A stretch of DNA of 64,000 nt, taken from contig JADFXT010000004.1 of the NCBI GenBank assembly GCA_015233405.1, forward strand, positions 36,470-100,469. The letters run 5' to 3'. Shown here piece after piece: positions 23,505 through 56,537 of the stretch. Position 1 is the stretch's first letter; each line of letters begins with the position of its first letter. This DNA is from Candidatus Omnitrophota bacterium. Its GTDB lineage: Bacteria; Omnitrophota; Gorgyraeia; Zapsychrales; Zapsychraceae. A program made the translations under genes and the position numbers. The notes under the pieces are model-generated. The model was not told the origin of the DNA. It did not search any database and worked only from the letters and a program-made list of their open reading frames with translations.

Positions 23505-23507
23505 GGA

Positions 23508-36612: not shown

Positions 36613-38471
36613 TATTTATTTTGCCCTCCCTTGAGCATTAAAGGATTATATTCTTTAATGGCCATGATCATGTAGGCTGTACCGGCGATCGAACACGTGC
36701 TTGTGCCATGCGGAGTACGCCAGCCATGGCCGGTATCCACATCTTCCAATGTGGCATAAGGCAAGCATCCTTCCCCTTGCCCTCTCGGCGACGGGCTTGA
36801 AATAATAAGTTTATTTAATTCATTTAAATATTTATCCGCCTCTTGTTTGTAGTAACCAGTCTTGATCGCATTGATATCCTTGAAATAATCACTCAGCATC
36901 TGATAGGAGACGATCATCTGCGATGTCCACTCCGGCGAGATCAATCCGCCTCGAGCGATATTAATGGACTTCGAAAAATCAAACCCTTCCGCATCGACGA
37001 TAATTCCGCTGGGGCGTTTAAAAGAAATTTTAACACCACAATGTTCTTTGGCAAATTCCATGATCTGTTCGGGATCCATGCCGTTTTCCGAGAGCGTCTT
37101 CGGGCCAAGAGCGGCCAAAGACCAGGCAAACGTATCGGTAGCGACCGTCGAATCTCCCCGACCACGATTCATCGGCGGGGATTGATAATCTTTTGGATGG
37201 GCCACCATGGCATATTTTTGCAGCCAAGAAAATATTTTTTGTTGGGCCAATGTATATTTGGCATTGTGGGTCACCTGTTCAAGCATATGGAAGAAAGCAT
37301 AAGCATCAAGATTATGTTCGGTCGCGAACCATGTCACCGTCGGGCCACCTCTTAATCCGCCGGCAGGGTCCTGGTCCTGAAGGGAAATCAACCAGTCCGC
37401 AATTTTTTCAGCCATAGGAAGATACGTTGAATCCCCTGTCTGAGAAGTATACTGCAAAATAGCCAGGCCGAGCCAAATGTTCGGCCCGCAGTGCACGGTA
37501 AATTCCGCGATCTGCCCGGAATCATAATAGTACCCGTTGGTAAAACCTTGAAACGGACCACTCAGAGTCCGGCTGTAGAAATTCAGAATATCTCGTGCAG
37601 CTTTCTCGTCGTGAAACAGAAGAAAAACATTGACCCCCAGCGCCTCGTCGTAGGTGAACGCCCAGTCTTTAACAATCTTCACCTCGCCTTCGAAGCTTTG
37701 GATAAGCCCCGTCGATGGGCTCTGATGGTTCTTAAGCCACAAGTACATTTTCGATAAAACTTTAGCCTGCAGCCCCTCTTTCTGACGAGTTAAGATCGCG
37801 ACCCGGTCCGTGATCTGCCGCTCTTCATCCAGCAAAGTTCCATATTGCGTCTCAAGTGTTTGACGGTCTAAAGCATTCTCAACGGATTTATCAATCTTAT
37901 CTTTAAGGGCCTTCTTCTGCTGAGTAACTTTTTTTAAAGACTGATTTTCCTGACTATACTGCTCTTCGAGGCTGACCAGTTGATGGACCAGCACCTGGTT
38001 GGCGGAGCGAAGTTTATAATTATGAAAAAGGCTCACGGAAAAAGCGAGCAACAAGACCGCGGCGAGCATCACCGCCGATTGGAATGAAAATCTCAACCAG
38101 CGGGCGTAGCCGACGATCCGATGGACATCCTTAGCCGCAATTTCAGAAAATTTTAATCCGATCTGAAACCTTAAATGCGTATCATCTTCTGTTTTTTGGA
38201 TCCAGGCCACCTGGGCCTTGGCTTTGATCGGCGGGCGGGATAACGGCAGATGCAAATGGACATCGAGCAAAACCTTTTGATGAACGATCGCCTCTAAAGT
38301 CTCCTGATCCACATCGGATGTTTCCAGGCAAATACCACCCTGGGAAACGTTGGCCGTATAACCCTGGTGCCAGGAATTCCCCGCCGAAGACACAACAGAA
38401 AAATCGACGGGAAAAACACTTTTGAGTCGAATATATTGCCGCTTTTCGTGGATATATTCTTTATTGGCCAT
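36612..38471 (-). CDS. PilZ - TM - coiled-coil - (alpha/alpha)-toroid-like domain fusion protein
   Basis: 619 aa. N-terminal PilZ (RQYIR, NVSQGG), one TM ([17 protein letters not shown]), about 100 aa of coiled coil, then about 370 aa with W/G/Y-rich helical-hairpin repeats ([13 protein letters not shown]..., [29 protein letters not shown]) resembling glycoside-hydrolase or terpenoid-cyclase-type toroids. Confidence 0.7.
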
Positions 38472-44818: not shown

Positions 44819-45511
44819 TCAAGAACGGTATTTATTTCGGATGATTTCCCAATACATTGTCCATGCCCGGCCCCACGTGATCTTTTTCCCGTCTTCTTTG
44901 GTCCTAGCGACATAGCGAATGGGAACCTCGACGATGGGGAAGCCTTGTTTAACAAGCTTGGCGGTAATTTCCGTCTCAAAAGAAAAATCTTGCGACGTGA
45001 TTTCGATAGCCTTAAGGACCTCTTTACGGAAGACCTTAAAACATGTGTTGATATCGGTAATTTGAACTTTGTATAAAAGACTAAACGTCCAGCAGGAAAT
45101 CAGGTTCGCCAAACGATTGATCCACTCCATTCTTTCAATGTCCCCTTTAAACCGGGAACCATAAACAACCCGGGCATTGTCCTTTAAGATCGGCGATAAC
45201 AGAACCTCGTAATTCTCTGGGCTATATTCCATATCCGCATCCTGGATCAACAGAATATCTCCCGAGGCTTTTTCAAAGCCATATTTCACAGCAGCGGTCT
45301 TCCCTTGATTTTGTTTAAAATGAAATATCCGAATCTGCGGGTCTCCCTCGAACGCCTTTAAAATATTATCGGTCTGGTCTTTGGACCCGTCATTGATGAT
45401 CACAATTTCTTTTTCCAGTGGACTGGGAAGATGGACAGATTTAACGGCTTGGATCAAGGCTTCAAGCGTTCGTTCTTCATTGTAAACAGGAATGATGATG
45501 GATAATAGCAT
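44819..45511 (-). CDS. Family 2 glycosyltransferase (polyprenyl-phosphate sugar synthase-like)
   Basis: 230 aa. LSIIIPVYNEE, VIINDGSKDQT, IQDADMEY (DxD). Confidence 0.9.
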   Translation of the reverse strand: MLLSIIIPVYNEERTLEALIQAVKSVHLPSPLEKEIVIINDGSKDQTDNILKAFEGDPQIRIFHFKQNQGKTAAVKYGFEKASGDILLIQDADMEYSPENYEVLLSPILKDNARVVYGSRFKGDIERMEWINRLANLISCWTFSLLYKVQITDINTCFKVFRKEVLKAIEITSQDFSFETEITAKLVKQGFPIVEVPIRYVARTKEDGKKITWGRAWTMYWEIIRNKYRS

Positions 45512-45540
45512 GATGAGGTTTCTAGGACGGGTAATGAAAA

Positions 45541-45615
45541 CGGGCTCGACGCGATTCGAACGCGCGATCTTCAGCGTGACAAGCTGACATGTTAACCAGA
45601 CTACACCACGAGCCC
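45541..45615 (-). tRNA. tRNA-Asp (anticodon GTC)
   Basis: The reverse complement GGGCTCGTGGTGTAGTCTGGTTAACATGTCAGCTTGTCACGCTGAAGATCGCGCGTTCGAATCGCGTCGAGCCCG folds as a cloverleaf. Acceptor GGGCTCG/CGAGCCC, anticodon stem TCAGC/GCTGA, loop TTGTCAC, T-loop TTCGAAT. No encoded CCA. Confidence 0.95.
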
Positions 45616-45681
45616 AAAAACCTGAAATTGGATATTAAGTCTAATATTGAAAAAGCAATTTGTAAAGAAAAATCTCTTTTG

Positions 45682-46356
45682 TTAACGTTTAATTCTTCCT
45701 AATAGCCTCAGCAATCCATCGAGAATAGTTAACGGATGCGGCGGACATCCCGGGATGTACAGATCCACCGGAACAATGGTTTCAAGGCCTTTCGAGGCTT
45801 CCGGACTCTCAGCAAAAAGGCCGCCGGAAATCGCACACGCACCGGAAGCAATCACGATCTTAGGCTCCGGCATGGCCTCGTACGTTTTTAAAAGCGCCTC
45901 TCGCATATTACGCACAATAGGACCAGTCACGATCATTCCGTCGGCATGCCGAGGAGAAGCGACAAACTGAATACCAAAACGGCTTAGATCAAAAACCACG
46001 GTATTAAGAACATTTAAATCCGCTTCACAGGCATTGCATCCGCCAGCGGAAACTTGCCGAAGTTTAAGCGACCGGCCGAACAATTGACGCATTTGATCGT
46101 TTAGCGCGCAAGCCAGGACTGTTTCGTTATTTTTTAGAACAAGGTCCCTGCGCTTTGCAGCGCTTAAGCGAAAATCGTTACTATATTGTATTCCATCGTC
46201 GGGAGCAAAGGTTATCTGGCCCAAATCTAAGGGACTGCCTTGACCCGCTATCATGGGCCGTCCACGATACCTCGACGGAAGCATCGGAGACTTTCCTCGC
46301 GAAAAAGAGATTGTCTTACAACCTTGTTTAAAGCGATTTATCAGGATATTAAGCAT
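45682..46356 (-). CDS. ehrS: Ehr-type complex small subunit (NuoB / HycG / EchC homologue)
   Basis: 224 aa. Retains the four [4Fe-4S] ligands: GGCNACE (CxxC), ASGACAISGG and YIPGCPPHP. Has an N-terminal extension of about 90 aa. Confidence 0.85.
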   Translation of the reverse strand: MLNILINRFKQGCKTISFSRGKSPMLPSRYRGRPMIAGQGSPLDLGQITFAPDDGIQYSNDFRLSAAKRRDLVLKNNETVLACALNDQMRQLFGRSLKLRQVSAGGCNACEADLNVLNTVVFDLSRFGIQFVASPRHADGMIVTGPIVRNMREALLKTYEAMPEPKIVIASGACAISGGLFAESPEASKGLETIVPVDLYIPGCPPHPLTILDGLLRLLGRIKR

Positions 46357-46365
46357 ATCAGCTTT

Positions 46366-47877
46366 CTATAAATCATGTCCACAATACGACAAATTAAAAC
46401 TTTTATTACACAGCGGAAAATCCGAGATCTCCTGGCCGCGCATCGCGAGGCTTAAACCAAACCAGTTATGGAACGATGGGTCTTTAATTTTATACCGCGC
46501 AAAACCACCATTTTCATCTGTAATCCCGACGTGCATAATCTCCCCTCGCCATCCTTCCACTAATGATAAGGCCAACGAATCCGGCTTAAGAGCTGGCGGT
46601 TTGACAAAAATCCCGCCTTGCGGCAAAGACGATAAAATTCTTAAAAGGAATTCCAAGGAGCGCACGACTTCCTGACGGCGGACCAAGGCCCGGCCGAAGA
46701 CATCACCGGTCGCGGCCAGGGAAATAGGAATATGCGAGAATTGCCAGAATCCCGACGAATAATCAATGCGGACATCACGCTCCAGACGACAGGCGCGACC
46801 CGCCGGGCCAACGAGACCAATCTTTTTCGCGTTCTCCATAGAGATCGCCCCAACACCTTCAAATCGCGCTAAGACCGAAGGCTTGGTAAATAATAAATTA
46901 CTCACATCTTCAAATTCTTTTTTATACCCTTTAAGTTTACGGCAGAACTCCTCCGCCATCTGACTATCGACATCAAATAACACGCCGCCGGGGCGACACA
47001 ATCCTTTGCCGAAGCGGTTCCCCGTTAACGCCAATAATAAATTCAAATAATCACCGCGCATCCGGCCGAAATATGCGCTCGTCGGCAAGAAGCCCACATC
47101 TGCGCTCATCGCGCCTAAATCTCCGACGTGATTTGAAAGCCGTTCCAGTTCAAGGGCAACTGCGCGAATCGCTTGGGCCTTGGGCGGAATGACGCATCCA
47201 GACAAAGATTCCACCACCTCACAATGGGCGATAGAATGCCCAACAGCGGTGTCTCCGGCGATGGCCTCGCTTAAAAGCGCGCTACGTTTAAAGTCCCGGC
47301 CTCGCATTAAAAGCTCTAGCCCGCGGTGTTGATATCCCAATTGAATCTCAAGGTGCATCACCTCTTCCCCATGGCACTGAAAACGAAAATGCCCCGGCTC
47401 AATAATACCGGCATGGACCGGGCCGACGCCGACCTCATGGACCTCCGGACTCTCGACGGCATAGAAAGAATAAGACCCCGGAATCGGCCGAGACGAAACA
47501 TCGGGCCAAATATCTGCCTTGCCCCGATAATTGGCGTGATAACGTAACGGCTTAAGCCATGGATGACCTTCCGGAATAATTGCCCACTGCTCCGCGACCT
47601 CACGCTCAAACCAATGCGCCTGAATTAAATCTTTGGTTAATGATTCATACTGTGGATGATCCGCCAGAATCCTCGTCGAAAAAACAGTAATTTCAGAATC
47701 TTCGTCCCACCCTAAAAAGGCAAACAGCCGCACACCGCCGTCGACTTCTTCATGTCCAAAGAAATTGACAAGCCTAGCACCTTCTTGGCATTGACTAATG
47801 ATTTTTTCACGGAACAGTTGCACACCCAAGACAGGGATCTCGGATAAAACTATGTTTGCCCCATTAAATAATTTCAT
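46366..47877 (-). CDS. ehrL: Ehr-type complex large subunit (fused NuoC-NuoD / HycE-like) lacking [NiFe] cysteine ligands
   Basis: 503 aa. VGVGPVHAGIIEPGHFRF and LGYQHRGLE are typical of group-4 hydrogenase and NuoD proteins. The N-terminal CxxC position reads SEAIAGDTAVGHS, and the C-terminal DPCxxCxxR position reads NLSYCGHDL at the extreme C-terminus. Confidence 0.85.
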   Translation of the reverse strand: MKLFNGANIVLSEIPVLGVQLFREKIISQCQEGARLVNFFGHEEVDGGVRLFAFLGWDEDSEITVFSTRILADHPQYESLTKDLIQAHWFEREVAEQWAIIPEGHPWLKPLRYHANYRGKADIWPDVSSRPIPGSYSFYAVESPEVHEVGVGPVHAGIIEPGHFRFQCHGEEVMHLEIQLGYQHRGLELLMRGRDFKRSALLSEAIAGDTAVGHSIAHCEVVESLSGCVIPPKAQAIRAVALELERLSNHVGDLGAMSADVGFLPTSAYFGRMRGDYLNLLLALTGNRFGKGLCRPGGVLFDVDSQMAEEFCRKLKGYKKEFEDVSNLLFTKPSVLARFEGVGAISMENAKKIGLVGPAGRACRLERDVRIDYSSGFWQFSHIPISLAATGDVFGRALVRRQEVVRSLEFLLRILSSLPQGGIFVKPPALKPDSLALSLVEGWRGEIMHVGITDENGGFARYKIKDPSFHNWFGLSLAMRGQEISDFPLCNKSFNLSYCGHDL

Positions 47878-47909
47878 AATTTCTTACCTTGTTTCTTTCA
47901 TTTCAATTT

Positions 47910-49322
47910 TTATATCCTGACAAGCGCGACAGCGTCATTAAGAACTTTGGTTAAAATATCCGGCATCCATAAGCCCAACCCAAGCGAGATGATCATGGCG
48001 ACGGCAATGGCCGCGTTCATCAAGAAATTTTCCTTCGCAGGAAGAACGGGCTGCGTGGGCTTTCCCAAAGCCATCTCGAGGACGATTCGTAAAACGCCGA
48101 TAAACATCACCAAAATCCCGCCCAAATAGACAAGCGCCAAAAGATAATGCCCGGATAAAACCGCGGCATTAAGGATCATCAATTCGCTATGGAATGTTGC
48201 AAAAGGGAACATCCCCGTCCCGGCGAGAAATCCGGCGATCAGAAGCACGCCGGTGACCGGATACAGGTGAATGACACCTTTAACCTCTGTTGCGCGGGAG
48301 GAGCCGTATTTCTGGGCCAAAGAACCGGCGGCTAAAAAAGCCGCGACCTTGGCAACGGCATTATTGATCATATGAAAAAAAGCTCCAAAAATCCCGACCG
48401 GGCCTAATCCTAGCCCCAAAACGAGGATCCCCATATGCTCGACGGAAGAATAGGCGAACGCCCGCTTGATATTCCCTTCGCCCAAAATAAAAATCGCCGG
48501 AGCCACCAAGGATAGTGCCCCTGTGACAATCAAAATGGAGGCGTAAAATTCGCTTAACCCCGTCTTGGCACAAATCTGGCTGACACGAATTAATGCTAAA
48601 AAAGAACATTGTGTTAGAGCCCCTGACATCAACGCCGCAATCATCCCCGGTGCCTGTCCATAGGCCTCGGGTTTCCAACTGTGCATCGGCGCCAGCCCCA
48701 TTTTACATCCATACCCGACGAGCAAAAAAATAACGCTTAACTTAAGCCAATTGACCGACAACATTTTCGCCCCGCTTAAAAGCACAGGCAAAAGAAGCGT
48801 GTGCACATCATGCGCCGCAATGGCCAAAAAAAATGTTCCTAACAAAGCCAGGGCTATGCCGACGGAACAAACCAGTAAATATTTCCATGTGGCCTCCAGA
48901 CTTTCTGGGTTACGGTGAAAACTGATCAAAGGTGCGCTAAACAGCGTCGTCGCTTCGATCGCTACCCATAAAAGCCCCATGTGCCGGCTCACGGAAACAA
49001 GCGTCATCGTTGACAAAAGCAAAAGTAAACACGCCACAAACGTCCGGGTCCTTCGTTGTTCATGGTGGAAATATCCAACCATATAAACCGAGACGCTTAA
49101 AAAGAGGAAGCTGACAATGGATAGGACAATAAGGCCTATCGCATCGAGCATCAAGAATCCATTAATTTCCGACGGAGGATTGACCTTCCAAAATGAGGCG
49201 ACGATCATCGCATGGACCAAAGACACCGCGCACAAGATGCGTACCCTTAAACGACGCTCCATTGGAAGAAAAACAACTAACCCGCAAACAAAAGGAATTA
49301 AAATTAAAACAGATAGCATCAA
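47910..49322 (-). CDS. ehrD: Ehr-type antiporter-like subunit (NuoM/NuoN/HyfF-like)
   Basis: 470 aa with about 14 TM. SSVEHMGILVLGLG and FHMINNAVAKVAAFLAAG are typical of Mrp/NuoMN-type subunits. Confidence 0.85.
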   Translation of the reverse strand: MMLSVLILIPFVCGLVVFLPMERRLRVRILCAVSLVHAMIVASFWKVNPPSEINGFLMLDAIGLIVLSIVSFLFLSVSVYMVGYFHHEQRRTRTFVACLLLLLSTMTLVSVSRHMGLLWVAIEATTLFSAPLISFHRNPESLEATWKYLLVCSVGIALALLGTFFLAIAAHDVHTLLLPVLLSGAKMLSVNWLKLSVIFLLVGYGCKMGLAPMHSWKPEAYGQAPGMIAALMSGALTQCSFLALIRVSQICAKTGLSEFYASILIVTGALSLVAPAIFILGEGNIKRAFAYSSVEHMGILVLGLGLGPVGIFGAFFHMINNAVAKVAAFLAAGSLAQKYGSSRATEVKGVIHLYPVTGVLLIAGFLAGTGMFPFATFHSELMILNAAVLSGHYLLALVYLGGILVMFIGVLRIVLEMALGKPTQPVLPAKENFLMNAAIAVAMIISLGLGLWMPDILTKVLNDAVALVRI

Positions 49323-49972
49323 AGAGTCTCTCCCATCTTAGTCCTTCTTAGCGAAGCCGGCGCGTGTTCAAACTCCTCATTGATATGATTGACAACAATC
49401 GCCATGATAAAAACAGCGACGAAAATATCCAGCAAGATCCCCATTTCGATCAACGTCGGCATGGCATCAAACAAAGATAAGGCAAAAAGAAAAATCCCGT
49501 TTTCCATAACGAGATATCCCAAGACCTGGGTGATGGCCTTGGTCCGGGTGACGATAATCATAAATCCTAATAACACTGTCGAGAGCGAACAGGGAATGAC
49601 CAAATCCGATATGAGTTTTCCCGGCAATTTGAGAGACGACGCGACCCAAAAGGCGCCAGCGATCAAAAAAGTCCCGCAGATGATCGACGTGCCGAAGCCG
49701 ATAAATGGCTTGACCTCAGAACGCATCGACATATGCCGGATGGCCCAAAATAAAATATACGGTGCGACAATCGCCTTTAAAACCAGCGTGGCCAAAACAA
49801 GCATCACATCCCGTCCCGTGAGCGCATCCGCATGCAGGAAAAACGGAACAAAGCTTAAGACAAAAGATTGCACGACGAAGATATGAATCATACCGGTAAT
49901 CCGGTATGTGGCCAAAATCGACAAGGCTAAAAACACAACTAAAATGCAGCTCGTATCAATCCAGGTTGTCAT
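49319..49972 (-). CDS. ehrC: Ehr-type small membrane subunit (HyfE-like)
   Basis: 217 aa polytopic membrane protein, matching HyfE in size and position. 4-nt overlap with the next gene. Confidence 0.7.
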   Translation of the reverse strand: MTTWIDTSCILVVFLALSILATYRITGMIHIFVVQSFVLSFVPFFLHADALTGRDVMLVLATLVLKAIVAPYILFWAIRHMSMRSEVKPFIGFGTSIICGTFLIAGAFWVASSLKLPGKLISDLVIPCSLSTVLLGFMIIVTRTKAITQVLGYLVMENGIFLFALSLFDAMPTLIEMGILLDIFVAVFIMAIVVNHINEEFEHAPASLRRTKMGETL

Positions 49973-49994
49973 GTCTTCCTTTCCGAAAGAGGAT

Positions 49995-50918
49995 TTATCC
50001 TCTCCATAATCTTACGATAAAACCAAAAAATGCCAGCGCAAAGGCGATGAGAAGAAGATTCGTTACGCGATTAAGACGTAACCTCGCCATACCGGACTCG
50101 ACCAAACCGATAAAGATCGCAATTCCCAGCATCCCAACGACAAAAATCAAGGTGTCCATCAACCCATGCCCTGTGTGGATGGGCAAAAGAATCGGGACCA
50201 AAATGCCGCCGAAAAGAAAAAGCTTGGCCGCAGCGCCATAAAGCATGTAGGCCAAATCAACACCACTATGGTCTAAGATCATCACTTCATGAATCATGGT
50301 CAACTCCAAATGCGTCGACGGGTCATCTACGGGAATCCGGCAATTTTCCGCCAAGATCACAATAAAAAAACTCGAGACCACCAGAAGAAGCGTTGGTCCC
50401 ATCAACTTCCAAGAGAGCGGGATCTCTGCGCCGATCATGCCGGATAAAGATATCTGATGAGCCACCAAGACGAGCGTCACAAAATTCATAAAGATCGTCA
50501 GCTCCGATAAACAGGAAAAAAACGCCTCACGGCTCGCGCCCATCCCTTCAAAACTAGAACCGGTATCTAACGCCGCGACAATCATAAAGAACCGTGCTAA
50601 CCCAAAAAGATACGCCACAAGAAAAATGTCGCCGGAAAACCTCACCGGGGCTTTAAACGCGCCAAAAGGAATCATTAAAGATACCGCTAAGACAGAAGCG
50701 AAAACAACGATCGGTGCGGCGCGAAAAATCCACGTTGTCGTATGACTGTAGACACATTTCTTCTGAAAAAGTTTCGCCAGGTCAAAATAAGGCTGAAACA
50801 CCGACGGGCCGACCCTGCCACCGAAGAATGCCTTGACCCGGGTAATCACACCAAGGAAAAAAGGTGAAAACAAAAGCACCATCAGCCAATGCCATAAAAT
50901 AGAAAATATAATGTTCAC
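49995..50918 (-). CDS. ehrB: Ehr-type NuoH / HycD-like membrane subunit
   Basis: 307 aa with 8 TM. GTG start preceded by AAAGGA. Shows the NuoH/HycD pattern (FFGGRVGPSVFQPYFDLAKLF.K, EAFFSCLSE, ENCRIPVDDP, ELTMIHE). Confidence 0.85.
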   Translation of the reverse strand: MNIIFSILWHWLMVLLFSPFFLGVITRVKAFFGGRVGPSVFQPYFDLAKLFQKKCVYSHTTTWIFRAAPIVVFASVLAVSLMIPFGAFKAPVRFSGDIFLVAYLFGLARFFMIVAALDTGSSFEGMGASREAFFSCLSELTIFMNFVTLVLVAHQISLSGMIGAEIPLSWKLMGPTLLLVVSSFFIVILAENCRIPVDDPSTHLELTMIHEVMILDHSGVDLAYMLYGAAAKLFLFGGILVPILLPIHTGHGLMDTLIFVVGMLGIAIFIGLVESGMARLRLNRVTNLLLIAFALAFFGFIVRLWRG

Positions 50919-50931
50919 GAGGTCCTTTCGC

Positions 50932-52776
50932 CTATCCTCTCATTTTCCAAACCAGTAAAAAAATGAGAAATACAAATATATAGATCAAATAGATCTGCGT
51001 ATACCGAATGCTTTTTTCATCAATTCTTTTAGACAAATTTCTCAAACGGGTAAAAACCGGGCGGAACAAATAATCTTCAGACGCGTCATGAACATGAGAC
51101 GACATTTGGGCCTTTTGAGGAAATTCTCCGGAAACCTCTCCCCCATAGCGTCGGAACAATAAAGTATTTCTAAAATATTGAACAATCGGACGGGCAAATG
51201 ACGAAGAGGTGTACTGCAATTTTGAAGAAAGCTGTGTGAACCCGCAGCTCCAGGTCTCGCTCGTCGGCATAGGCTCTTTACCCAAAAGCCATCGACGGAC
51301 AAAAACCAACATAATGATTAGCGCCAAAAGCACAAAGGCCGTGCCATTGATGATCGAAAGGGGATTAAGGATTTTCCCTAAATAAAACGCCGACGGCTCC
51401 ATATGCGCCAAAAAATTCCCACCCATAAAAGTTAGTCGGGCCATGACAGCAGGCATAAGGCCGATCCAAATGCATAATCCCGCTAGAAGGAACATCGGCG
51501 CCATCATCCACGCAGAAACTTCTTCTGTTCCTTTTGTTTCAATACTCGAACGTGGATTCCCTAAAAAAACAATCCCATAGACTTTGGTAAAACAGGCCAA
51601 GGCGAGCGCACCGATTAAGGCCAGCGATAGAATCCCTAAAACAAAAAACACAACACCCTGTAATGGGAGTGCCAAGACGCCCTGAAAAAGTCCGAAGTAA
51701 ATCATAAACTCGCTGATAAAACCATTAAATAACGGCAGCCCACAGATCGAAAGCGCACCGACGAGAAATAGAGTGCTGGTTAGAGGCATGATCTTCGCTA
51801 CCCCTCCCAATTTATCGATTTCGCCGGTGTGCATCTTTTGAATCACCGCGCCTGCTCCTAAAAATAAAAGCCCTTTAAAGATCGCGTGATTAATGACATG
51901 AAGAAGTGCTCCGGCAAATCCTAAAGCTGCGATAAAAGGCTGGTGATAGCTTCTGCCTAATAATCCGACGCCAAGACCTAAGGCAATGATCCCGATATTC
52001 TCGATGCTGTGATACGCCAAAAGTCTTTTGATCTCGTGCTGGCCTAAGGCATAAAGAACACCCATCACGCCGGAGACAATCCCGATGGTCAAAAGAACAT
52101 ATCCGCACCAATTAGGGAAGATTCCCATGATCCATAAGACGCGGCAGATGCCGTAAATCCCGATTTTAATGGTAACACCCGATAAAAACGCAGAAACATG
52201 CGACGGCGCCGCTGGATGGGCATGCGGCAGCCAGATATGCATGGGCAAAAACCCAGCCTTGACGCCGGACCCAATAATCGCCAGAAAAAAAATAATGCCT
52301 GCCAGCGCCGGAGAAAAAGTTGTGTGGGCCATCACAGTAAAATCCATGGAACCGGCCGTGCGCGCCATCAGAAAGAACATTAAAAACAGGCAGAACGTCC
52401 CGCAGTGCGTGGCAATAAGATATAAGAATCCAGCTCGACGAACAGAAGGCTTCTCATCGTGAAAGACAATCAAAAAATAAGTCGCAATCGACATCAATTC
52501 CCATGCGCACAAAAACAAAATCACATTATTAGCCGTAACAACCAACCCGATCGCCACCGCCAATAACAGAAAGAAGAAAGCGTGCGCTTTAAGCGATCGC
52601 GCCCCTTGATAGGAACGCATATACCCGACGCCATAAATCCCGGCGCAGAGTGTCAGAATAATAATGGCCGTCAGAAATATCAGGCTTAACGGGTCAAGCT
52701 TAAGCGTAAACTCGCCAAAAGGCACATGCCATGGGAATTGAATGATTTTTTCCATATTCTCAACCTTCACAATCAC
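50932..52776 (-). CDS. ehrA: Ehr-type antiporter-like subunit (NuoL / HyfB / HycC-like)
   Basis: 614 aa. WELMSIATYFLI, WLPHAHPAAPSHVSAFLSG, LLAYHSIENIG, HVINHAIFKGLLFLGAG. The ORF track start is GTG 52776, a 4-nt overlap with the upstream gene. ATG 52755, preceded by AAGGTTGAG, is an alternative. Confidence 0.85.
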   Translation of the reverse strand: MIVKVENMEKIIQFPWHVPFGEFTLKLDPLSLIFLTAIIILTLCAGIYGVGYMRSYQGARSLKAHAFFFLLLAVAIGLVVTANNVILFLCAWELMSIATYFLIVFHDEKPSVRRAGFLYLIATHCGTFCLFLMFFLMARTAGSMDFTVMAHTTFSPALAGIIFFLAIIGSGVKAGFLPMHIWLPHAHPAAPSHVSAFLSGVTIKIGIYGICRVLWIMGIFPNWCGYVLLTIGIVSGVMGVLYALGQHEIKRLLAYHSIENIGIIALGLGVGLLGRSYHQPFIAALGFAGALLHVINHAIFKGLLFLGAGAVIQKMHTGEIDKLGGVAKIMPLTSTLFLVGALSICGLPLFNGFISEFMIYFGLFQGVLALPLQGVVFFVLGILSLALIGALALACFTKVYGIVFLGNPRSSIETKGTEEVSAWMMAPMFLLAGLCIWIGLMPAVMARLTFMGGNFLAHMEPSAFYLGKILNPLSIINGTAFVLLALIIMLVFVRRWLLGKEPMPTSETWSCGFTQLSSKLQYTSSSFARPIVQYFRNTLLFRRYGGEVSGEFPQKAQMSSHVHDASEDYLFRPVFTRLRNLSKRIDEKSIRYTQIYLIYIFVFLIFLLVWKMRG

Positions 52777-53453
52777 TGCCTGACGATTTTCGATTCAACG
52801 ACCTGAAATGCTGCCAAGACCTCTTCCTGATTCCGATAACCATGCAAAGCCGTTTTAAAATGTTCATCCTGTAAACAAAACGCCAGACGAGACAATAAAG
52901 ACAAATGCTCTTTAAAGGAGGCAGACAAGATCACAAAAAGGGTATGAATATTTTGACCGTCTAAAGCGGCAAAATCAATGGGCGTTTCCAGAAAAAACAA
53001 CCCCACCATCGGTTCCATGCCGGCCAAGACAACAGGATGTTTAATGTGCGGAATGGCGATGCCGTCCCCGACGCCGGTTGTGCCCATCTGTTCACGGGAC
53101 AAAAGCATGTCTTTTAGAAATAGCCGCGGAATATGTATTGGTAATGGGAGGAATTCCAAAATCTTTTCAAGGATATCTTCTCGGCGATTTCCCTTAATGT
53201 CCCAATAAACCCCGCCGCGCATCAAAGCCGGCGTTAAGAGATCCTGGCCCAAGCGTTTTTTCTCACAAAGCTTAAGCGCGCCCGGTGTTAAAGGAATACG
53301 CGACTTCAGCGCCCATTCCAAGACTTCGATAGGATTAAAATAATATTGGTCATCAGCTTTCACGGCCGGCATTTTCCCGACGTTAAGCCAATGATAGAGG
53401 GTTTTTTCTTCGACCTCAAAGGCTTCTTGAACTTCATGAAAAGTCAGTTGCAT
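52773..53453 (-). CDS. HTH (excisionase/MerR-like) + PTS EIIA type-2 (PtsN-like) domain protein
   Basis: 226 aa. N-terminal TFHEVQEAFEVEEKTLYHWLNVGKMPAVK (HTH_17-like). The C-terminal EIIA-2 pattern has conserved His in GDGIAIPHIKHP and LFVILSA. Confidence 0.8.
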   Translation of the reverse strand: MQLTFHEVQEAFEVEEKTLYHWLNVGKMPAVKADDQYYFNPIEVLEWALKSRIPLTPGALKLCEKKRLGQDLLTPALMRGGVYWDIKGNRREDILEKILEFLPLPIHIPRLFLKDMLLSREQMGTTGVGDGIAIPHIKHPVVLAGMEPMVGLFFLETPIDFAALDGQNIHTLFVILSASFKEHLSLLSRLAFCLQDEHFKTALHGYRNQEEVLAAFQVVESKIVRQ

Positions 53454-53473
53454 ATTAAACGCCCCTGGTAAGA

Positions 53474-55126
53474 CTAATTCTTTTCTTGGAGTAGCTCATT
53501 GGCCCGAGCGATGGCCGGCTTCATTGCCGAGAAGACATTATCTTCTCCTATCATATCATAAAGGTGGCTCTTGACCATTTCATTGAGCGGCTGAACATGA
53601 AGCCCGGTGACAATCAAATGAATACGGCTGTTTTTGCACTTCTCATAAAAACTCCTTAAAGCATGCATACCCGTCGAGTCAATCAAAGGAACATCACGGA
53701 ACCGTAAGATACGCACCCCTGGTTTTTCATTGACCTGCCGGTCAATTTCATCAAAATGGTTCGCGGCACCAAAAAAAAGCGGCCCGTTGATTTCATAAAC
53801 CCGCACGCCCGGAGGCACGACAATTGCCGACAAGGGCTGGTCCTCGCCATCCTCATTTTCAAATTCCTTGGCCATGACTTTAATCGTGGTGGCGTCCGAC
53901 ATACGTTTCATAAAAATGAATGCCGACATAACAACCCCGACTTCGATCGCCGCATTTAAATCGACAAACACCGTAAGAAAAAATGTCGTCAAAAGTACCA
54001 TGCGCCCGCCGGTGGACCACTTCAGTAATTCACGAAACGAACGCCATTCGCTCATATGATACGCCACAACGACCAATATCCCGGCGAGGCATGCCAGCGG
54101 CACAAACTTAATCCAGGCGCCTAGAAATAGCATAATCAAAAGTACCGTTATCGCATGGACAATGCCAGCAACCGGAGTTCTTCCGCCGTTTTTAATATTC
54201 GTCACGGTCCGGGCAATCGCGCCCGTTGCCGGAATGCCGCCAAAAAGCGCAGAACCAATATTAGCAACTCCCTGCCCGATCAATTCAGTGTTCGAACGAT
54301 GTTTTCCGCCGATCATCCCGTCGGAAACGATCGCGGAAAGAAGTGATTCAATGGCCCCTAAAATGGCAATGGTAAAAGCCGGCTGAAAAAGTTCCTGGAT
54401 CCTTTTAAGCCCGAACGCGGGAAAATGCGGGGCTGGTAATGTGTGCGGCAAATCCCCAAAACGGCTGCCGATCGTCTCAACGGGAAGACGAAAAAATGCC
54501 GACAGTGCAGAAACAGAAATTAGGGCCACCAGCGCACCTGGGATTTTTCTCGAAACCTTCGGCCAAATGGCAATGATCAAAACGGTCAACATGGCTAACA
54601 TAAAAGCGTCATAATTGATGGTCCCAATATTTCCAATAAACAGACGCCATTTCTCCAAAAATTCAGCAGGAATTTTTCCAGTCGTTAATCCCAAGAAATC
54701 TTTCACCTGGGACGAAAAAATAATCATCGCAATTCCGCTCGTAAATCCGACAATGACCGAATGCGGAATAAATTTAACAATGGATCCAAACCGCACCACT
54801 CCCATAATGATCAAGATGACACCGGCCATCAACGTCGCGATCACAAGTCCGTCTATCCCATATTTTTGAACAATACCGTAAACAATAACGACAAATGCGC
54901 CCGTCGGGCCTCCGATCTGCACGCGGCTTCCGCCTAAAACGGAAATAAAAAACCCGGCGATAATGGCGGTAAAAAGTCCTTTATCCGGTGAAACCCCCGA
55001 GGCAATGGCAAATGCGATCGCCAAAGGAATCGCAACAACGCCGACAATCATGCCAGCGATACAATCCGTGATAAATTTTTCTTTAGAATAATCTTTAAGA
55101 CAAGTGAATAACTTTGGAGCAAACAT
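53474..55126 (-). CDS. SulP/SLC26-family anion transporter with C-terminal STAS domain
   Basis: 550 aa. DCIAGMIVGVVAIPLAIAFAIASGVSP, the GGPTGAFVVIVYG blocks, and a C-terminal STAS domain (VRVYEINGPLFFGAANHF...ILRFRDVPLIDSTGMHAL). Confidence 0.9.
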   Translation of the reverse strand: MFAPKLFTCLKDYSKEKFITDCIAGMIVGVVAIPLAIAFAIASGVSPDKGLFTAIIAGFFISVLGGSRVQIGGPTGAFVVIVYGIVQKYGIDGLVIATLMAGVILIIMGVVRFGSIVKFIPHSVIVGFTSGIAMIIFSSQVKDFLGLTTGKIPAEFLEKWRLFIGNIGTINYDAFMLAMLTVLIIAIWPKVSRKIPGALVALISVSALSAFFRLPVETIGSRFGDLPHTLPAPHFPAFGLKRIQELFQPAFTIAILGAIESLLSAIVSDGMIGGKHRSNTELIGQGVANIGSALFGGIPATGAIARTVTNIKNGGRTPVAGIVHAITVLLIMLFLGAWIKFVPLACLAGILVVVAYHMSEWRSFRELLKWSTGGRMVLLTTFFLTVFVDLNAAIEVGVVMSAFIFMKRMSDATTIKVMAKEFENEDGEDQPLSAIVVPPGVRVYEINGPLFFGAANHFDEIDRQVNEKPGVRILRFRDVPLIDSTGMHALRSFYEKCKNSRIHLIVTGLHVQPLNEMVKSHLYDMIGEDNVFSAMKPAIARANELLQEKN

Positions 55127-55172
55127 CGTGGACCCTTTCTAGAGAAGCTTTCCTTCCCCTTAAAATGAAAGA

Positions 55173-55193
55173 CCCTGATTTCAAAACTCAGGG
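55173..55193 (-). promoter_or_regulatory. Hairpin in SulP leader (weak terminator/attenuator candidate)
   Basis: On the minus strand, CCCTGA-GTTTTGAAA-TCAGGG followed by TCTTTCATTTT. A second CCCTGA copy lies about 45 nt upstream in the same leader (GGCTCCCTGAAG). Confidence 0.35.
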
Positions 55194-55282
55194 CCTTATT
55201 CTCTTTTTAAATTTTTTTCTGATAACTAACTTCAGGGAGCCTGGGTGGTATCCTGCAAAAGTTTAATCTCTACTTAAAAAAT

Positions 55283-55310
55283 ATTATAACTCGATTCTGT
55301 TTGCTGTAAA
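55283..55310 (-). promoter_or_regulatory. Candidate sigma70 promoter for SulP-EIIA-Ehr operon
   Basis: On the minus strand, TTTACA - 16 nt - TATAAT. It lies about 155 nt upstream of the SulP ATG (55126) and just after the stop of the upstream 80-aa ORF. Confidence 0.5.
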
Positions 55311-55333
55311 TAAGAATTCAACATTCTTAAAGA

Positions 55334-55576
55334 TCATTCAACTAAAAAAACAACTTTTGTGGAAGGCTCAATAATACAAACTCCGTCTTGAAAACGGTGG
55401 TCTGGTCCTGCCATAACGGCGATGCCTTTTTTAATATCAAATAAATTCGGGCCGACCTTCTTACAAAACAGAATACAACGAGACCCTTTGTCATCTTTCA
55501 AGGCAGACATTTTACCCCGAAGAAACTGTTCTTTATAACGGCTAACAATACCTTCTTGGACCGAGACCTTGTCCAT
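55334..55576 (-). CDS. Hypothetical small protein
   Basis: 80 aa ORF with a good SD (AAGGAG, 6-nt spacing). No recognisable family. Confidence 0.5.
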   Translation of the reverse strand: MDKVSVQEGIVSRYKEQFLRGKMSALKDDKGSRCILFCKKVGPNLFDIKKGIAVMAGPDHRFQDGVCIIEPSTKVVFLVE

Positions 55577-55601
55577 TTCTTAGCTCCTTTCGAAAACGTG
55601 C

Positions 55602-56537
55602 TTATTGCAATTTTTGGGATATCTCATACAAAACCCCACCGGCAATATCAGCCGCAGGAAGCATATATTTTCGCGCGGAAACGGTTATTTCAGTTTTTTG
55701 TTCTTTTGTTTTCTTAATTTTAAGCACAACATCCGCACCCTTCACATTGGCCTTCATTTCTCCCTTTGTCGCACTCTGCCCGGCGACATTCCCCATACGT
55801 TTTAGGACATCGAGACTGACAGCGTAAGCTTGATCAACCCCAGCATTAAAATCCTGTTTAACACTATCGTTACCGGCAAAAGTTGCTGCAATCCCGACGG
55901 GCAAAATGGCCATGCCGGCTAGCATCGCAACGCCATAGACCTGAGCCCCTTTGATCCCCGCTGATTTCAAAGGCTCCGCCAGAATCAAAACTGCCAACTG
56001 TTGAACACTGGTAATATTTTTATAGGTCTTATGGATATTGACGTCATAAACCCGCACATCCGGCTCAGGATCTTTCCCCGTATAATCTTTTGAGACGATC
56101 TTACCAATACCTAATGTCAGCTTATCAATCTGTAAAGGAAGCGGCTTAGACGTATCTGGCTGTTTCACAACTTTTAATGAATCGACATTGAGCTTGCCGT
56201 CTTTATTCTTGGCAAGTCCCATCTCTTGCAATTCAAGCTCCACCAAAGAAAGGTGCAGTTTTTGTTTCAACAATGCCGCAAGATCATAAGTGACATTAAT
56301 TTTAGGACAAGAAATCAGAACATCTTTGGAAAAGCCGTTGGGATTATATAATTTAAATCCGGAAATGCGGATCGTCGGATGAAAAATGCCAACAGAAAAA
56401 CTATCAATATGAACCGGTGCGCCCGTCACATTGGTGGCTACCACCGTAACGACCGATTTAATAATCAAATCTTTCACGATGGTGATAAAGATTAATGAAA
56501 AAGAAACAATTCCCAAAATGATAAGAATTTTTTTCAT
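55602..56537 (-). CDS. Membrane-anchored hypothetical protein
   Basis: 311 aa with an N-terminal TM (ILIILGIVSFSLIFITIV). The beta-rich N-terminal half is loosely AsmA/DUF748-like, followed by a central hydrophobic segment and a C-terminal soluble part. SD AAAGGAGG upstream. Confidence 0.7.
   Translation of the reverse strand: MKKILIILGIVSFSLIFITIVKDLIIKSVVTVVATNVTGAPVHIDSFSVGIFHPTIRISGFKLYNPNGFSKDVLISCPKINVTYDLAALLKQKLHLSLVELELQEMGLAKNKDGKLNVDSLKVVKQPDTSKPLPLQIDKLTLGIGKIVSKDYTGKDPEPDVRVYDVNIHKTYKNITSVQQLAVLILAEPLKSAGIKGAQVYGVAMLAGMAILPVGIAATFAGNDSVKQDFNAGVDQAYAVSLDVLKRMGNVAGQSATKGEMKANVKGADVVLKIKKTKEQKTEITVSARKYMLPAADIAGGVLYEISQKLQ

What the first reader, a model, noticed from the sequence alone, without database searches (positions are those of the whole stretch)
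45682..52776. Six-gene complex-I-like (Ehr-type) cluster whose hydrogenase-like large subunit has lost all four [NiFe] cysteine ligands
On the minus strand the gene order is:
- NuoL/HyfB-like (614 aa)
- NuoH/HycD-like (307 aa)
- HyfE-like (217 aa)
- NuoM/N/HyfF-like (470 aa)
- fused NuoC-NuoD/HycE-like large subunit (503 aa)
- NuoB/HycG-like small subunit (224 aa)

Gaps between genes run from -4 to 32 nt. This is the architecture known for energy-converting-hydrogenase-related (Ehr) complexes, a class with no assigned function.

Seen directly in the sequence:
- Where group-4 hydrogenases carry the N-terminal CxxC, the large subunit reads SEAIAGDTAVGHS.
- Where they carry the C-terminal DPCxxCxxR/H, it ends ...SFNLSYCGHDL.
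- The small subunit keeps all four Fe-S ligands (CNAC, GACAISGG, GCPP).
- The window contains no NuoI/HycF-type 2x[4Fe-4S] subunit, no NuoEFG-like input module, no formate dehydrogenase or CODH partner, and no hyp/hyc maturation genes.

The cluster therefore looks like an ion-translocating membrane arm plus a vestigial redox module. Its substrate and partner are unknown.
Basis: partly seen in the sequence, partly recalled or inferred. Interest (0 to 1): 0.75.

Follow-up and report, generated by a model that had tools for sequence, protein, structure and literature searches.

The report
Ehr-type complex-I-like operon, stripped of cofactors
This is one more copy of a widespread, already named but still function-less relative of hydrogenases and respiratory complex I (the Ehr/Hyq complex); here it keeps only one of its iron-sulfur clusters and is co-transcribed with a PTS-type regulator and an anion transporter.

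Summary
Six minus-strand genes at 45682-52776 encode HyfB-, HycD-, HyfE-, HyfF-, HycE/NuoCD- and NuoB-like proteins.

- **Not a [NiFe] hydrogenase.** The four Ni-Fe cysteines of the large subunit are replaced by A, T, S and G.
- **Family.** This is the known Ehr family (Geobacter EhrABCDLS; rhizobial Hyq "endo-hydrogenase"). It is present in hundreds of species across more than 9 phyla, and the source is an Omnitrophota MAG.

1. **The pocket is remodelled, not decayed.** [A/S]-G-D-[T/S] and S-Y-x-G-x-D-L are conserved family-wide.
2. **The "missing" HycF/NuoI module is present as a relic.** It is normally fused to the N-terminus of the small subunit. Here it survives without its eight cysteines, so only the N2-type cluster remains, and that cluster is invariant.
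3. **The operon is eight genes.** An HTH-EIIA(Ntr) gene overlaps ehrA by 4 nt; homologues were found in 35 of 54 loci with enough upstream sequence, beside ehrA. A SulP/STAS transporter gene lies upstream of it.

My preferred mechanism is a regulated H+/Na+ translocator, not a hydrogenase. This is inferred, not shown.

Verdict: a new member of a known kind, of moderate interest.

The parts
55283..55310 (-). Sigma-70-like promoter candidate (TTTACA-16-TATAAT) about 155 nt upstream of the SulP start codon
   Evidence: Best consensus match in 45300-56000, 11 of 12 positions. This is a consensus match only, not proof of function.
53474..55126 (-). SulP-family anion transporter with a C-terminal STAS domain (550 aa), DauA-like; probable first gene of the operon
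   Evidence: Pfam Sulfate_transp 1.3e-84 and STAS 5.9e-14. NCBIfam DauA 514 bits (cut-off 614) and BicA 277 bits (cut-off 880). It lies 20 nt upstream of the next gene on the same strand. SulP also lies next to ehr in L003, L005, L066, L077 and L030, and a weaker match (113 bits) about 7 kb downstream in L021.
52773..53453 (-). HTH_17 + PTS EIIA(Ntr)-type protein (226 aa). HTH is residues 3-50; the EIIA domain is residues 87-216; the phospho-acceptor His136 is at 53046-53048.
   Evidence: Pfam PTS_EIIA_2 4.2e-20 and HTH_17 4.1e-05. The only PDB relatives found are all PtsN; GDGIAIPH aligns with GNGIAIPH of E. coli PtsN 1a6j. It overlaps ehrA by 4 nt. Homologues were found in 35 of 54 ehr loci (directly upstream of ehrA in 27); the His is at least 90% conserved.
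50932..52776 (-). EhrA, a NuoL/HyfB/HycC-like antiporter-type subunit (614 aa)
   Evidence: NCBIfam HyfB 565 bits. HycC 7z0s_C 1.4e-68. The alignment keeps E93 (TM5), K173 (TM7), K204 (TM8), K301 (TM11) and E356 (TM12).
49995..50918 (-). EhrB, a NuoH/HycD-like subunit (307 aa)
   Evidence: Pfam NADHdh 9.6e-33. Full-length alignment to HycD 7z0s_D at 6.4e-29, including DTGSSFEGMGASRE.
49319..49972 (-). EhrC, a HyfE-like membrane subunit (217 aa) with a NuoK-like C-terminal part
   Evidence: NCBIfam hydrogenase-4 membrane subunit 6.9e-25. Weak Pfam Oxidored_q2 match at residues 128-194.
47910..49322 (-). EhrD, a NuoM/N/HyfF-like antiporter-type subunit (470 aa)
   Evidence: NCBIfam HyfF 297 bits. 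The alignment to MbhH and MbsH keeps E123, K207, K325 and E380; the TM8 Lys is Gln.
46366..47877 (-). EhrL, a fused NuoC-NuoD/HycE-like large subunit (503 aa) without Ni-Fe ligands. The L1-equivalent AGDT is at 47248-47259, the C-terminal SYCGHDL at 46369-46389, and the near-invariant beta1-beta2 loop VGPVHAGIIEPGHFRF at 47380-47427.
   Evidence: It is 100% identical to an NCBI protein of a Candidatus Omnitrophica MAG on a 168,999-bp contig.
45682..46356 (-). EhrS, the small subunit (224 aa). Residues 1-100 (46057-46356) are a cysteine-less relic of a HycF/NuoI-like 2x[4Fe-4S] domain. Residues ~105-224 are the NuoB/HycG-like domain, with the N2-type ligands Cys107, Cys110, Cys174 and Cys204.

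Best explanation
**What it is.** The region is the ehrABCDLS operon of an uncultured Omnitrophota bacterium. It encodes a six-subunit membrane complex of the known Ehr (= Hyq) family, related to hydrogenase-4, formate hydrogenlyase and respiratory complex I. It is most probably transcribed from one promoter together with two upstream genes: a SulP/STAS anion transporter and an HTH-EIIA(Ntr) regulator.

**Shown here.**
- It is not a [NiFe] hydrogenase. All four metal-binding cysteines are replaced by a signature conserved across the family: A/S-G-D-T/S ... S-Y-x-G-x-D-L.
- Its small subunit is a fusion of a HycF/NuoI-like two-cluster ferredoxin domain with a NuoB-like domain. In the whole Omnitrophota clade the ferredoxin part has lost all eight cysteines. 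Only the N2-type [4Fe-4S] site is left, and it is invariant.

**Inferred.**
- The membrane arm (EhrA, EhrD, EhrB, EhrC) still moves H+ or Na+, because the charged residues of the antiporter-like subunits and the loop that links pocket to membrane are intact.

**My best guess.**
- In this lineage the complex no longer passes electrons from a soluble donor along a cluster chain.
- Instead, a protonation, ligand-binding or one-electron event at the remodelled pocket next to the single cluster gates or drives ion movement.
- The HTH-EIIA protein sets expression, and perhaps activity, according to the phosphorylation state of the nitrogen-related PTS.
- The co-transcribed SulP transporter uses or balances the ion gradient.
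For: **Identity.**
- Gene content and order.
- 46-50% identity of the large subunit to Geobacter, Geomonas and Pelobacter loci.
- Grouping with all cysteine-less sequences in a neighbour-joining tree.

**Not a hydrogenase.**
- Residue-by-residue alignment to HycE.
- No CxxC-type motif in any of 84 fetched loci.

**The pocket is under constraint.** Among 139 cysteine-less sequences, mostly 50%-identity cluster representatives, the middle residue is Asp in 131, C2 is Thr or Ser in 120, C3 is Ser in 131 and C4 is Gly in 135. The beta1-beta2 loop H155-F166 is at least 90% conserved.

**Loss of the relay.**
- In most of the 72 aligned EhrS sequences the N-terminal part carries 8-10 Cys in two ferredoxin motifs.
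- This domain matches HycF (1.2e-11), MbhN, MbsN and NuoI and Pfam Fer4 families.
- The window's N-terminus aligns to it (36% identity, E 1e-21) with both motifs deleted or cysteine-free.
- None of 118 scorable close homologues has a ferredoxin motif. All 120 keep the four N2-type Cys.

**Membrane arm intact.**

**Regulator.**
- EIIA(Ntr)-type domain with a conserved phospho-His.
- First gene of ehr operons in at least 9 phyla.
- PtsP (Enzyme I) lies near ehr in L039 and L073.
- PtsN is known to control K+ transporters, including a cation/proton antiporter, by direct binding (PMC11808508).

**No conserved redox partner.** None was found within 10 kb in 80 loci.

**Expression elsewhere.** Ehr subunits were detected in the G. 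sulfurreducens proteome (PMC7894505).
Against: - Most family members keep a three-cluster chain. That only makes sense for electron transfer, so the ancestral function is probably a redox reaction, and the Omnitrophota form may still perform it with a donor that docks directly.
- The invariance of the N2-type cysteines fits an active redox role at least as well as a structural or gating one.
- No ion-transport or regulatory experiment exists for any Ehr complex.
- The EIIA protein may be nothing more than a transcription factor.
- SulP adjacency was seen in only 6 of 82 distinct loci, one of them a weak match, plus the window.
- The only genetic data in the family (Azorhizobium Hyq) point to H2 turnover, not ion homeostasis.
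Confidence: 0.4

Rival explanations
1. It is still a true oxidoreductase and redox-driven ion pump. A low-potential donor such as ferredoxin or flavodoxin reduces the N2-type cluster directly. Electrons then pass to an unknown acceptor bound in the remodelled pocket, such as a menaquinone-like or other small molecule. This would be a minimal ferredoxin:acceptor counterpart of complex I.
For: - The four N2-type Cys are invariant in 120 of 120 clade members and 94-97% conserved family-wide.
- Most family members keep a complete HycF-like two-cluster relay.
- The pocket and its coupling loop are conserved.
- The authors of the Hyq work propose quinone reduction at the HyqC/G/I interface (PMC3357923).
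- Marreiros et al. 2013, as cited in PMC6349859, suspect redox-coupled charge translocation.
Against: - The relay cysteines are gone in this clade while the relic domain is retained. It presumably still covers the cluster.
- The NuoD quinone ligands are absent: Gly208 sits at the Tyr87 position, and the loop is of the hydrogenase type.
- No donor or acceptor gene is conserved next to ehr in 80 loci.
- No ferredoxin-type ORF exists in the 64-kb window.
Confidence: 0.3
2. It is a non-canonical hydrogenase, as claimed for the Azorhizobium caulinodans Hyq "endo-hydrogenase". H2 is made or consumed at a site that does not use the four classical cysteines.
For: - Deleting hyqRBCEFGI raised H2 release about tenfold in N2-fixing cultures and lowered H2 evolution at <1 uM O2 (PMC3357923, PMC2650096).
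- R. johnstonii HyqG carries the same family signature, SGDS ... SYSGHDL, and the same gene order.
Against: - No known H2-activating site lacks metal-binding cysteines, and the Hyq authors themselves call a Ni-Fe centre "uncertain, if not unlikely".
- No cell-free activity has been reported.
- The window has no hyp genes.
- According to PMC7894505, Hyb is the only hydrogenase G. sulfurreducens needs to grow on H2.
- The H2 phenotypes could be indirect effects on the redox or energy state of N2-fixing cells.
Confidence: 0.07
3. It is a solute-conversion or solute-uptake engine. A complex-I-derived module uses the ion gradient to drive anion chemistry, for example bicarbonate/CO2 or C4-dicarboxylate handling with the adjacent SulP. 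This would be analogous to cyanobacterial NDH-1 CO2-uptake complexes or DAB pumps.
For: - SulP is co-transcribed here and lies next to ehr in Omnitrophota, Verrucomicrobiota and Gemmatimonadota, with a weaker match in a Planctomycetota locus.
- L003 also has a CitMHS transporter and a malic enzyme upstream.
- The pocket is polar and conserved.
Against: - SulP is absent from most ehr loci.
- No carbonic-anhydrase-like or DabA/CupA-like gene was seen.
- The SulP scores nearer DauA (514 bits) than BicA (277 bits).
- The idea is pure analogy.
Confidence: 0.08
4. It is a decaying, non-functional remnant of a hydrogenase operon.
For: - Cofactor sites have been lost progressively: Ni-Fe in all members, and the relay clusters in several lineages.
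- One paper treats Geobacter Ehr as non-functional (PMC13194489).
Against: - All eight ORFs are intact with tight or overlapping junctions.
- At least 120 distinct close homologues at 57-77% identity have intact lengths.
- The substituted residues and the relic domain are themselves conserved.
- The family occurs in hundreds of species.
- Subunits are detected in proteomes (PMC7894505).
Confidence: 0.03

Closest known systems
Ehr (Ech-hydrogenase-related) complex of Geobacter sulfurreducens: EhrA-1/A-2, B, C, D, L, S (GSU0739-0745). Coppi 2005 and Marreiros et al. 2013, as cited in PMC7894505, PMC13194489 and PMC6349859.
   Same: - Same six subunit types in the same order.
- The large subunit has the identical AGDT ... 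SYCG signature, at 46-50% identity.
- An HTH-EIIA gene precedes an ehrA gene in Geobacter, Geomonas and Pelobacter loci.
- Function unknown.
   Different: - Geobacter-type EhrS mostly keeps the HycF-like two-cluster domain: 9 Cys in L036, L043 and L047. The window has none.
- Geobacter has two EhrA paralogues, with EIIA-EhrA-1 sometimes divergently transcribed. The window has one EhrA and adds SulP.
Hyq "endo-hydrogenase" of Azorhizobium caulinodans and rhizobia (hyqRBCEFGI; PMC2650096, PMC3357923)
   Same: - Six structural genes in the same order, preceded by a small regulator gene that overlaps the first structural gene by 4 nt (R. johnstonii pRL11).
- HyqG has 504 aa, lacks both CxxC motifs, and carries SGDS ... 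SYSGHDL.
- The small subunit has only the N2-type cluster.
   Different: - Only 34% identity.
- The regulator is an unrelated XRE-type HTH of 98 aa.
- HyqI lacks the N-terminal domain altogether (177 aa).
- hyq belongs to the nif regulon of aerobic diazotrophs; nothing of that kind is present in the window.
E. coli formate hydrogenlyase (HycBCDEFG, PDB 7z0s) and hydrogenase-4 (Hyf)
   Same: - These are the best solved relatives of every subunit: HycE 7.9e-50, HycG 1.7e-32, HycC 1.4e-68, HycD 6.4e-29.
- Same hydrogenase-type beta1-beta2 loop (EPGHFR).
   Different: - They have true Ni-Fe ligands, a separate HycF, HycB/FdhF partners and hyp/hycI maturation.
- FHL has no HyfE/HyfF-type subunits.
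Pyrococcus furiosus MBH and MBS (PDB 6cfw, 6u8y)
   Same: Homologous NuoB, NuoD, NuoH and antiporter-like core. MBS is a precedent for a group-4 relative that has given up H2 chemistry for another substrate.
   Different: - They have 13-14 subunits with a full Mrp-type Na+ module and a separate NuoI-like MbhN/MbsN.
- Similarity is much lower: MbsL 1.9e-21.
Respiratory complex I (NuoA-N) and ferredoxin-dependent NDH-1
   Same: A shared core of NuoB, C, D, H, L and M/N homologues and the N2-type cluster.
   Different: - No NuoEFG, no separate NuoI, and no NuoA or NuoJ.
- The quinone-ligand Tyr and His of NuoD are not present.
PtsN (EIIA-Ntr) of the nitrogen-related PTS (PDB 1a6j)
   Same: The EIIA domain of the first operon protein is closest to PtsN, with the phospho-His motif GxGIAIPH. 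PtsN regulates K+ transporters and a K+/H+ antiporter by binding them (PMC11808508).
   Different: It carries an N-terminal HTH_17 DNA-binding domain and is encoded inside an ehr operon rather than next to rpoN.

Membership tests
Ehr complex (EhrABCDLS) | Six genes for NuoL-, NuoH-, HyfE-, NuoM/N-, NuoCD/HycE- and NuoB-like subunits, in the order A-B-C-D-L-S | tested here: met
   The order is the same in every fetched locus that holds the whole cluster.
Ehr complex (EhrABCDLS) | Large subunit lacks the four Ni-Fe cysteine ligands | tested here: met
   Alignment to HycE gives A207, T210, S497 and G500. The family alignment agrees.
Ehr complex (EhrABCDLS) | Small subunit keeps the four ligands of the proximal (N2-type) [4Fe-4S] cluster | tested here: met
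   C107, C110, C174 and C204 align with MbhJ and HycG. Conservation is 94-97% family-wide and 120 of 120 in the clade.
Ehr complex (EhrABCDLS) | Large subunit groups with Geobacter-type Ehr sequences, not with four-Cys group-4 hydrogenases | tested here: met
   Neighbour-joining tree of 113 sequences, without bootstrap; 46-50% identity to Geobacter, Geomonas and Pelobacter loci.
Ehr complex (EhrABCDLS) | HycF/NuoI-like 2x[4Fe-4S] domain at the N-terminus of EhrS. This is typical of most members; whether it counts as defining is not stated in the papers I could read. | tested here: not met
   Only a relic is present, with no ferredoxin motif and both motifs deleted or cysteine-free.
Group 4 [NiFe] hydrogenase | L1 motif RxCGxCxxxH and L2 motif DPCxxCxxH/R in the large subunit | tested here: not met
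Group 4 [NiFe] hydrogenase | hyp/hyc maturation genes in the genome | tested here: inconclusive
   None was found in the 64-kb window. The rest of the MAG could not be read.
Respiratory complex I | NuoD quinone ligands (Tyr87 and His38 of T. thermophilus Nqo4) and the NuoEFG, NuoI, NuoA, NuoJ and NuoK subunits | tested here: not met
   Gly208 aligns with Tyr87, and the loop is of the hydrogenase type. The other subunits are absent from the window.
Hyq endo-hydrogenase (rhizobial hyqRBCEFGI) | Six-subunit core preceded by a small regulator gene, with HyqG lacking both CxxC motifs | tested here: met
   However, the regulator is not homologous.
Hyq endo-hydrogenase (rhizobial hyqRBCEFGI) | NifA/sigma-54 control, and an H2-recycling phenotype in diazotrophs | not testable with these tools
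   No nif genes were seen in the window. Physiology cannot be assessed for a MAG.
Mrp-type cation/proton antiporter | The MrpA-G subunit set without NuoB, NuoD or NuoH homologues | tested here: not met
   Only the MrpA/D-like and NuoK-like parts are shared; NuoH, NuoB and NuoCD homologues are present.
PTS EIIA(Ntr) (PtsN) | EIIA_2 fold with the phospho-acceptor His in GxGxAIPH | tested here: met
   The extra HTH_17 domain is not part of PtsN.

The most novel reading that the evidence does not exclude
Ehr complexes, at least the cluster-poor forms such as this one, may have given up electron transfer altogether. They would then be complex-I-derived conformational machines that work as PTS(Ntr)-controlled ion translocators. 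The remodelled Asp/Thr/Ser pocket and the single buried [4Fe-4S] would act as a sensor or gate. The complex would energise or balance anion transport (SulP) or another solute conversion.
Probability: 0.15. Interest if true: 0.8.

Novelty: new member of a known kind. Interest (0 to 1): 0.4.

Why it matters
**The open question.** Ehr/Hyq complexes sit between group-4 hydrogenases and complex I. They occur in hundreds of species, from Geobacter to nitrifiers and rhizobia, and have had no assigned function since 2005. This window does not solve that, and the cluster itself is ordinary for its phylum.

**What the comparison adds.**
- The former Ni-Fe pocket carries a conserved replacement signature, so it is doing something.
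- The HycF-like relay is fused to the small subunit and has been lost several times, while the N2-type cluster is always kept.
- An EIIA(Ntr)-type regulator is the commonest conserved neighbour.

These points give concrete experiments in cultured carriers (Geobacter, Geomonas, Geothrix, Desulfogranum).

**A caution for annotation.** "Hydrogenase" or "complex I" calls based on PF00346 alone can be Ehr, for example in Omnitrophota surveys.

Tried and rejected
- **Conserved redox partner.** I clustered all non-Ehr ORFs within 10 kb in 82 distinct loci. Apart from HTH-EIIA and SulP, the only recurrent family was sigma-54 response regulators, in 17 loci. No FDH, CODH, NuoEFG or separate ferredoxin recurred.
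- **HyqR versus the window's regulator.** The R. johnstonii first gene is an XRE-type HTH with no similarity to the window's HTH-EIIA, so only the position is shared.
- **Leader RNA.** I found no Rfam match in the 5' leader of SulP. The leader folds no better than shuffled sequence (z -0.62).
- **Literature on EIIA next to NuoL-like or Ehr genes.** Nothing was found. A search with the gene names ehrA, ehrL and so on was swamped by electronic-health-record papers.
- **Papers not held.** Coppi 2005 is not held, and Marreiros 2013 did not turn up in the searches. I therefore cannot say whether the fused HycF-like domain or the EIIA neighbour was noted there.
- **False alarm.** A first regular-expression count suggested that some clade members lack N2 ligands (71 of 120). 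An alignment showed all 120 keep them.
- **Cys499 as a shifted ligand.** I rejected this because the column is variable.
- **Structure prediction.** I did not run it. The tool returns confidence and secondary structure but no coordinates, so pocket geometry or docking could not have been judged.

Full report
**1. The observation.**

| Gene | Coordinates | Length | Homology |
|---|---|---|---|
| EhrA | 50932-52776 | 614 aa | HyfB-like |
| EhrB | 49995-50918 | 307 aa | NuoH/HycD-like |
| EhrC | 49319-49972 | 217 aa | HyfE-like |
| EhrD | 47910-49322 | 470 aa | HyfF-like |
| EhrL | 46366-47877 | 503 aa | NuoC-NuoD/HycE-like |
| EhrS | 45682-46356 | 224 aa | NuoB-like |

- Junctions are 13, 22, -4, 32 and 9 nt.
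- Pfam and NCBIfam agree with each homology.
- The best solved relatives of the four subunits searched against the PDB are chains of E. coli formate hydrogenlyase or P. furiosus MBH.

**2. The cysteines.**

- In the phmmer alignment to HycE, RVCGICGFAHS pairs with AIAGDTAVGHS, and DPCYSC pairs with NLSYCG. The four ligand positions are therefore Ala207, Thr210, Ser497 and Gly500.
- Cys499 is one position off. It sits in a column that varies across the family (C, S or A).
- The NuoD quinone-binding Tyr is not there either: Gly208 aligns with Tyr87 of Nqo4. The beta1-beta2 loop is of the hydrogenase type, EPGHFR.
- The small subunit keeps all four ligands of the proximal cluster.

**3. Source and family.**

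- The large subunit is 100% identical to a protein of a Candidatus Omnitrophica MAG on a 169-kb contig. It has at least 120 distinct close homologues, and those that carry a name are all from Omnitrophota.
- A full HMMER scan of 1.8 billion cluster representatives gave 6435 hits.
- I aligned 171 sequences. Of these, 139 lack Cys at ligand positions C2-C4, and the replacements are conserved:

| Ligand position | Replacement | Count (of 139) |
|---|---|---|
| C1 | Ala / Ser | 80 / 42 |
| residue between C1 and C2 | Asp | 131 |
| C2 | Thr or Ser | 120 |
| C3 | Ser | 131 |
| C4 | Gly | 135 |

- The C-terminus reads NKSFNLSYxGxDL. The loop H155-F166 is at least 90% conserved.
- Six true four-Cys hydrogenases among the same representatives form a separate basal group in a neighbour-joining tree. 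The window groups with other Omnitrophota, next to Gemmatimonadota and then the Planctomycetota/Verrucomicrobiota/Geobacter set (no bootstrap).
These may include some four-Cys hydrogenases, because the search patterns also fit them.
- The best 80 come from these groups:
  - Omnitrophota
  - Planctomycetota
  - Verrucomicrobiota
  - Desulfobacterota, including Geobacter, Geomonas limicola, Pelobacter and Desulfogranum marinum
  - Gemmatimonadota
  - Acidobacteriota, including Geothrix paludis
  - Spirochaetota
  - Riflebacteria
  - Myxococcota
  - Fibrobacterota
  - Alphaproteobacteria
- None of the 84 fetched loci has a CxxC-type motif, and all end in SY[CAS]GxD[LIMR].

This is the Ehr family.
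- It was named in G. sulfurreducens (Coppi 2005, cited in PMC7894505 and PMC13194489).
- It was generalised by Marreiros et al. 2013 (cited in PMC6349859).
- Papers from 2023 still give its function as unknown (PMC10284858, PMC10432482).

**4. The "missing" NuoI/HycF module.**

No ORF in the 64-kb window has a ferredoxin motif. The N-terminal ~100 residues of EhrS are nevertheless not a random extension.

- In most of the 72 aligned EhrS sequences this part carries 8-10 Cys in two motifs: KCxxxCxxCxxxCPTxAI and LDLGRCLFCxxCxxxCPxxAI.
- For a Planctomycetota member, residues 9-104 match HycF (1.2e-11), MbsN, MbhN and NuoI and Pfam Fer4 families.
- Family-wide, therefore, EhrS is a HycF-HycG fusion.
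- The window's N-terminus aligns with that domain (36% identity, E 1e-21). The first motif and part of the second are deleted, and what remains has no Cys.
- The same is true of all other Omnitrophota loci. None of the 118 close homologues that could be scored has a ferredoxin motif. All 120 keep the four N2-type Cys.
- Gemmatimonadota and several Desulfobacterales show partial loss. Rhizobial HyqI lacks the domain entirely (177 aa).
- The relay has thus been lost repeatedly, and the proximal cluster almost never.

**5. The operon is larger than six genes.**

- A 226-aa gene (52773-53453) overlaps ehrA by 4 nt. It encodes an HTH_17 domain plus a PTS EIIA_2 domain.
- Its only PDB relatives are PtsN proteins, and the phospho-His motif is kept: GDGIAIPH, His136.
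- Homologues are present in 35 of the 54 loci that have at least 800 nt upstream. In 27 they lie directly upstream of ehrA; in the others they lie beside a second ehrA copy.
  - In Geobacter the pair EIIA-EhrA-1 is divergent from EhrA-2-B-C-D-L-S.
  - In several Verrucomicrobiota the order is EhrA'-EIIA-EhrA.
- The His and the HTH are conserved in 40 homologues.
- PtsP (Enzyme I) lies near ehr in two loci.
- A SulP/STAS transporter gene lies 20 nt further upstream: DauA-like at 514 bits, BicA at 277 bits.
- SulP also lies next to ehr in five other loci (L003, L005, L066, L077, L030) from three phyla, with a weaker 113-bit match in L021.
- The best promoter-like site of the region is upstream of SulP, at 55310-55283. 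A tRNA-Asp follows EhrS.
- No other gene family is a conserved neighbour, apart from sigma-54 response regulators in 17 loci.

**6. The closest studied system.**

The hyqRBCEFGI operon of Azorhizobium caulinodans has the same six subunits in the same order. HyqG has 504 aa and no CxxC motifs (PMC3357923).
- Deleting the operon changes H2 release in N2-fixing cultures.
- No cell-free activity exists, and the authors themselves doubt a Ni-Fe centre.

In R. johnstonii pRL11:
- The operon begins with a 98-aa HTH gene that overlaps hyfB by 4 nt. It is XRE-type and unrelated to the window's regulator.
- HyqG reads SGDS ... FNCSYSGHDL, which is the family signature.

**7. How it probably works.**

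*Shown here:*
- The complex is an Ehr/Hyq family member and cannot bind Ni-Fe in the classical way.
- It has lost the relay clusters and kept the N2-type site.

*Inferred:*
- The membrane arm is active. EhrA keeps E93, K173, K204, K301 and E356. EhrD keeps E123, K207, K325 and E380. EhrB aligns with HycD over its full length.

*My preferred reading (confidence 0.4):*
- It is a regulated H+/Na+ translocator, gated or driven by an event at the remodelled pocket and its single cluster.
- Expression or activity is set by the PTS(Ntr) state. This would parallel PtsN control of K+ transporters and of the YcgO antiporter (PMC11808508).
- SulP uses or balances the gradient.

*Main rival (confidence 0.3):*
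- It is a still-active oxidoreductase in which a donor reduces N2 directly. This is favoured by the intact three-cluster chain in most relatives.

*Minor rivals:*
- A non-canonical hydrogenase (0.07), a solute-conversion engine (0.08) and a dead relic (0.03) are less likely.

**8. Verdict.**

- The cluster is one of very many, and it is already in public databases under the names "hydrogenase" or "NADH-quinone oxidoreductase subunit C". It is a new member of a known kind.
- The added value lies in three family-level observations: the conserved replacement signature, the fused and repeatedly lost HycF-like domain, and the EIIA(Ntr)-type first gene.
- I could not find these three points discussed in the papers available to me. 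They make the old question of Ehr function more approachable in cultured carriers.

Noticed in passing
window 45540-45616 (-) and 61210-61285 (-): tRNA-Asp(GTC) lies 65 nt downstream of the EhrS stop codon and marks the end of the operon. A tRNA-Val(TAC) lies further right.
   Followed up: yes
window 55127-55330 (-): The leader between the promoter-like site and the SulP start holds a local hairpin (GGCCCUGA...UCAGGGUC) followed by a U-run. The whole leader is no more stable than shuffled sequence and has no Rfam match.
   Followed up: partly
window 55334-55576 (-): An 80-aa ORF lies between the AsmA/DUF748-like gene and the SulP promoter region. It has not been annotated and may be spurious.
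   Followed up: no
L047 13251-20569; L072 2244-9980; L086 13631 onward: Some genomes (Geobacteraceae, a Verrucomicrobia MAG, a Variovorax plasmid) carry a second, more divergent Ehr-like cluster in tandem with the first.
   Followed up: no
L021 1-3283; L027 9173-12369: In two Planctomycetaceae loci EhrL-EhrS occur without the membrane-subunit genes upstream. In L021 an EIIA-like ORF directly precedes EhrL.
   Followed up: no
window 46366-47877 (literature cross-check): The Omnitrophota survey PMC10066038 scored "respiratory complex I" by PF00346 alone. EhrL hits PF00346 at 118 bits, so some of those calls may be Ehr complexes rather than complex I.
   Followed up: partly
window 23163-23867 and 36612-38471 (-): There are three PilZ-domain genes: two small adjacent ones and a 619-aa protein with an N-terminal PilZ domain. 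This suggests c-di-GMP signalling in this Omnitrophota bacterium.
   Followed up: no
window 3700-4689 (+): A 329-aa ankyrin-repeat protein, which is uncommon in free-living bacteria.
   Followed up: no
L003 1-4316: In a related Omnitrophota locus the SulP gene is itself preceded by a CitMHS transporter gene and a malic-enzyme gene. This hints at C4-dicarboxylate handling next to ehr.
   Followed up: no
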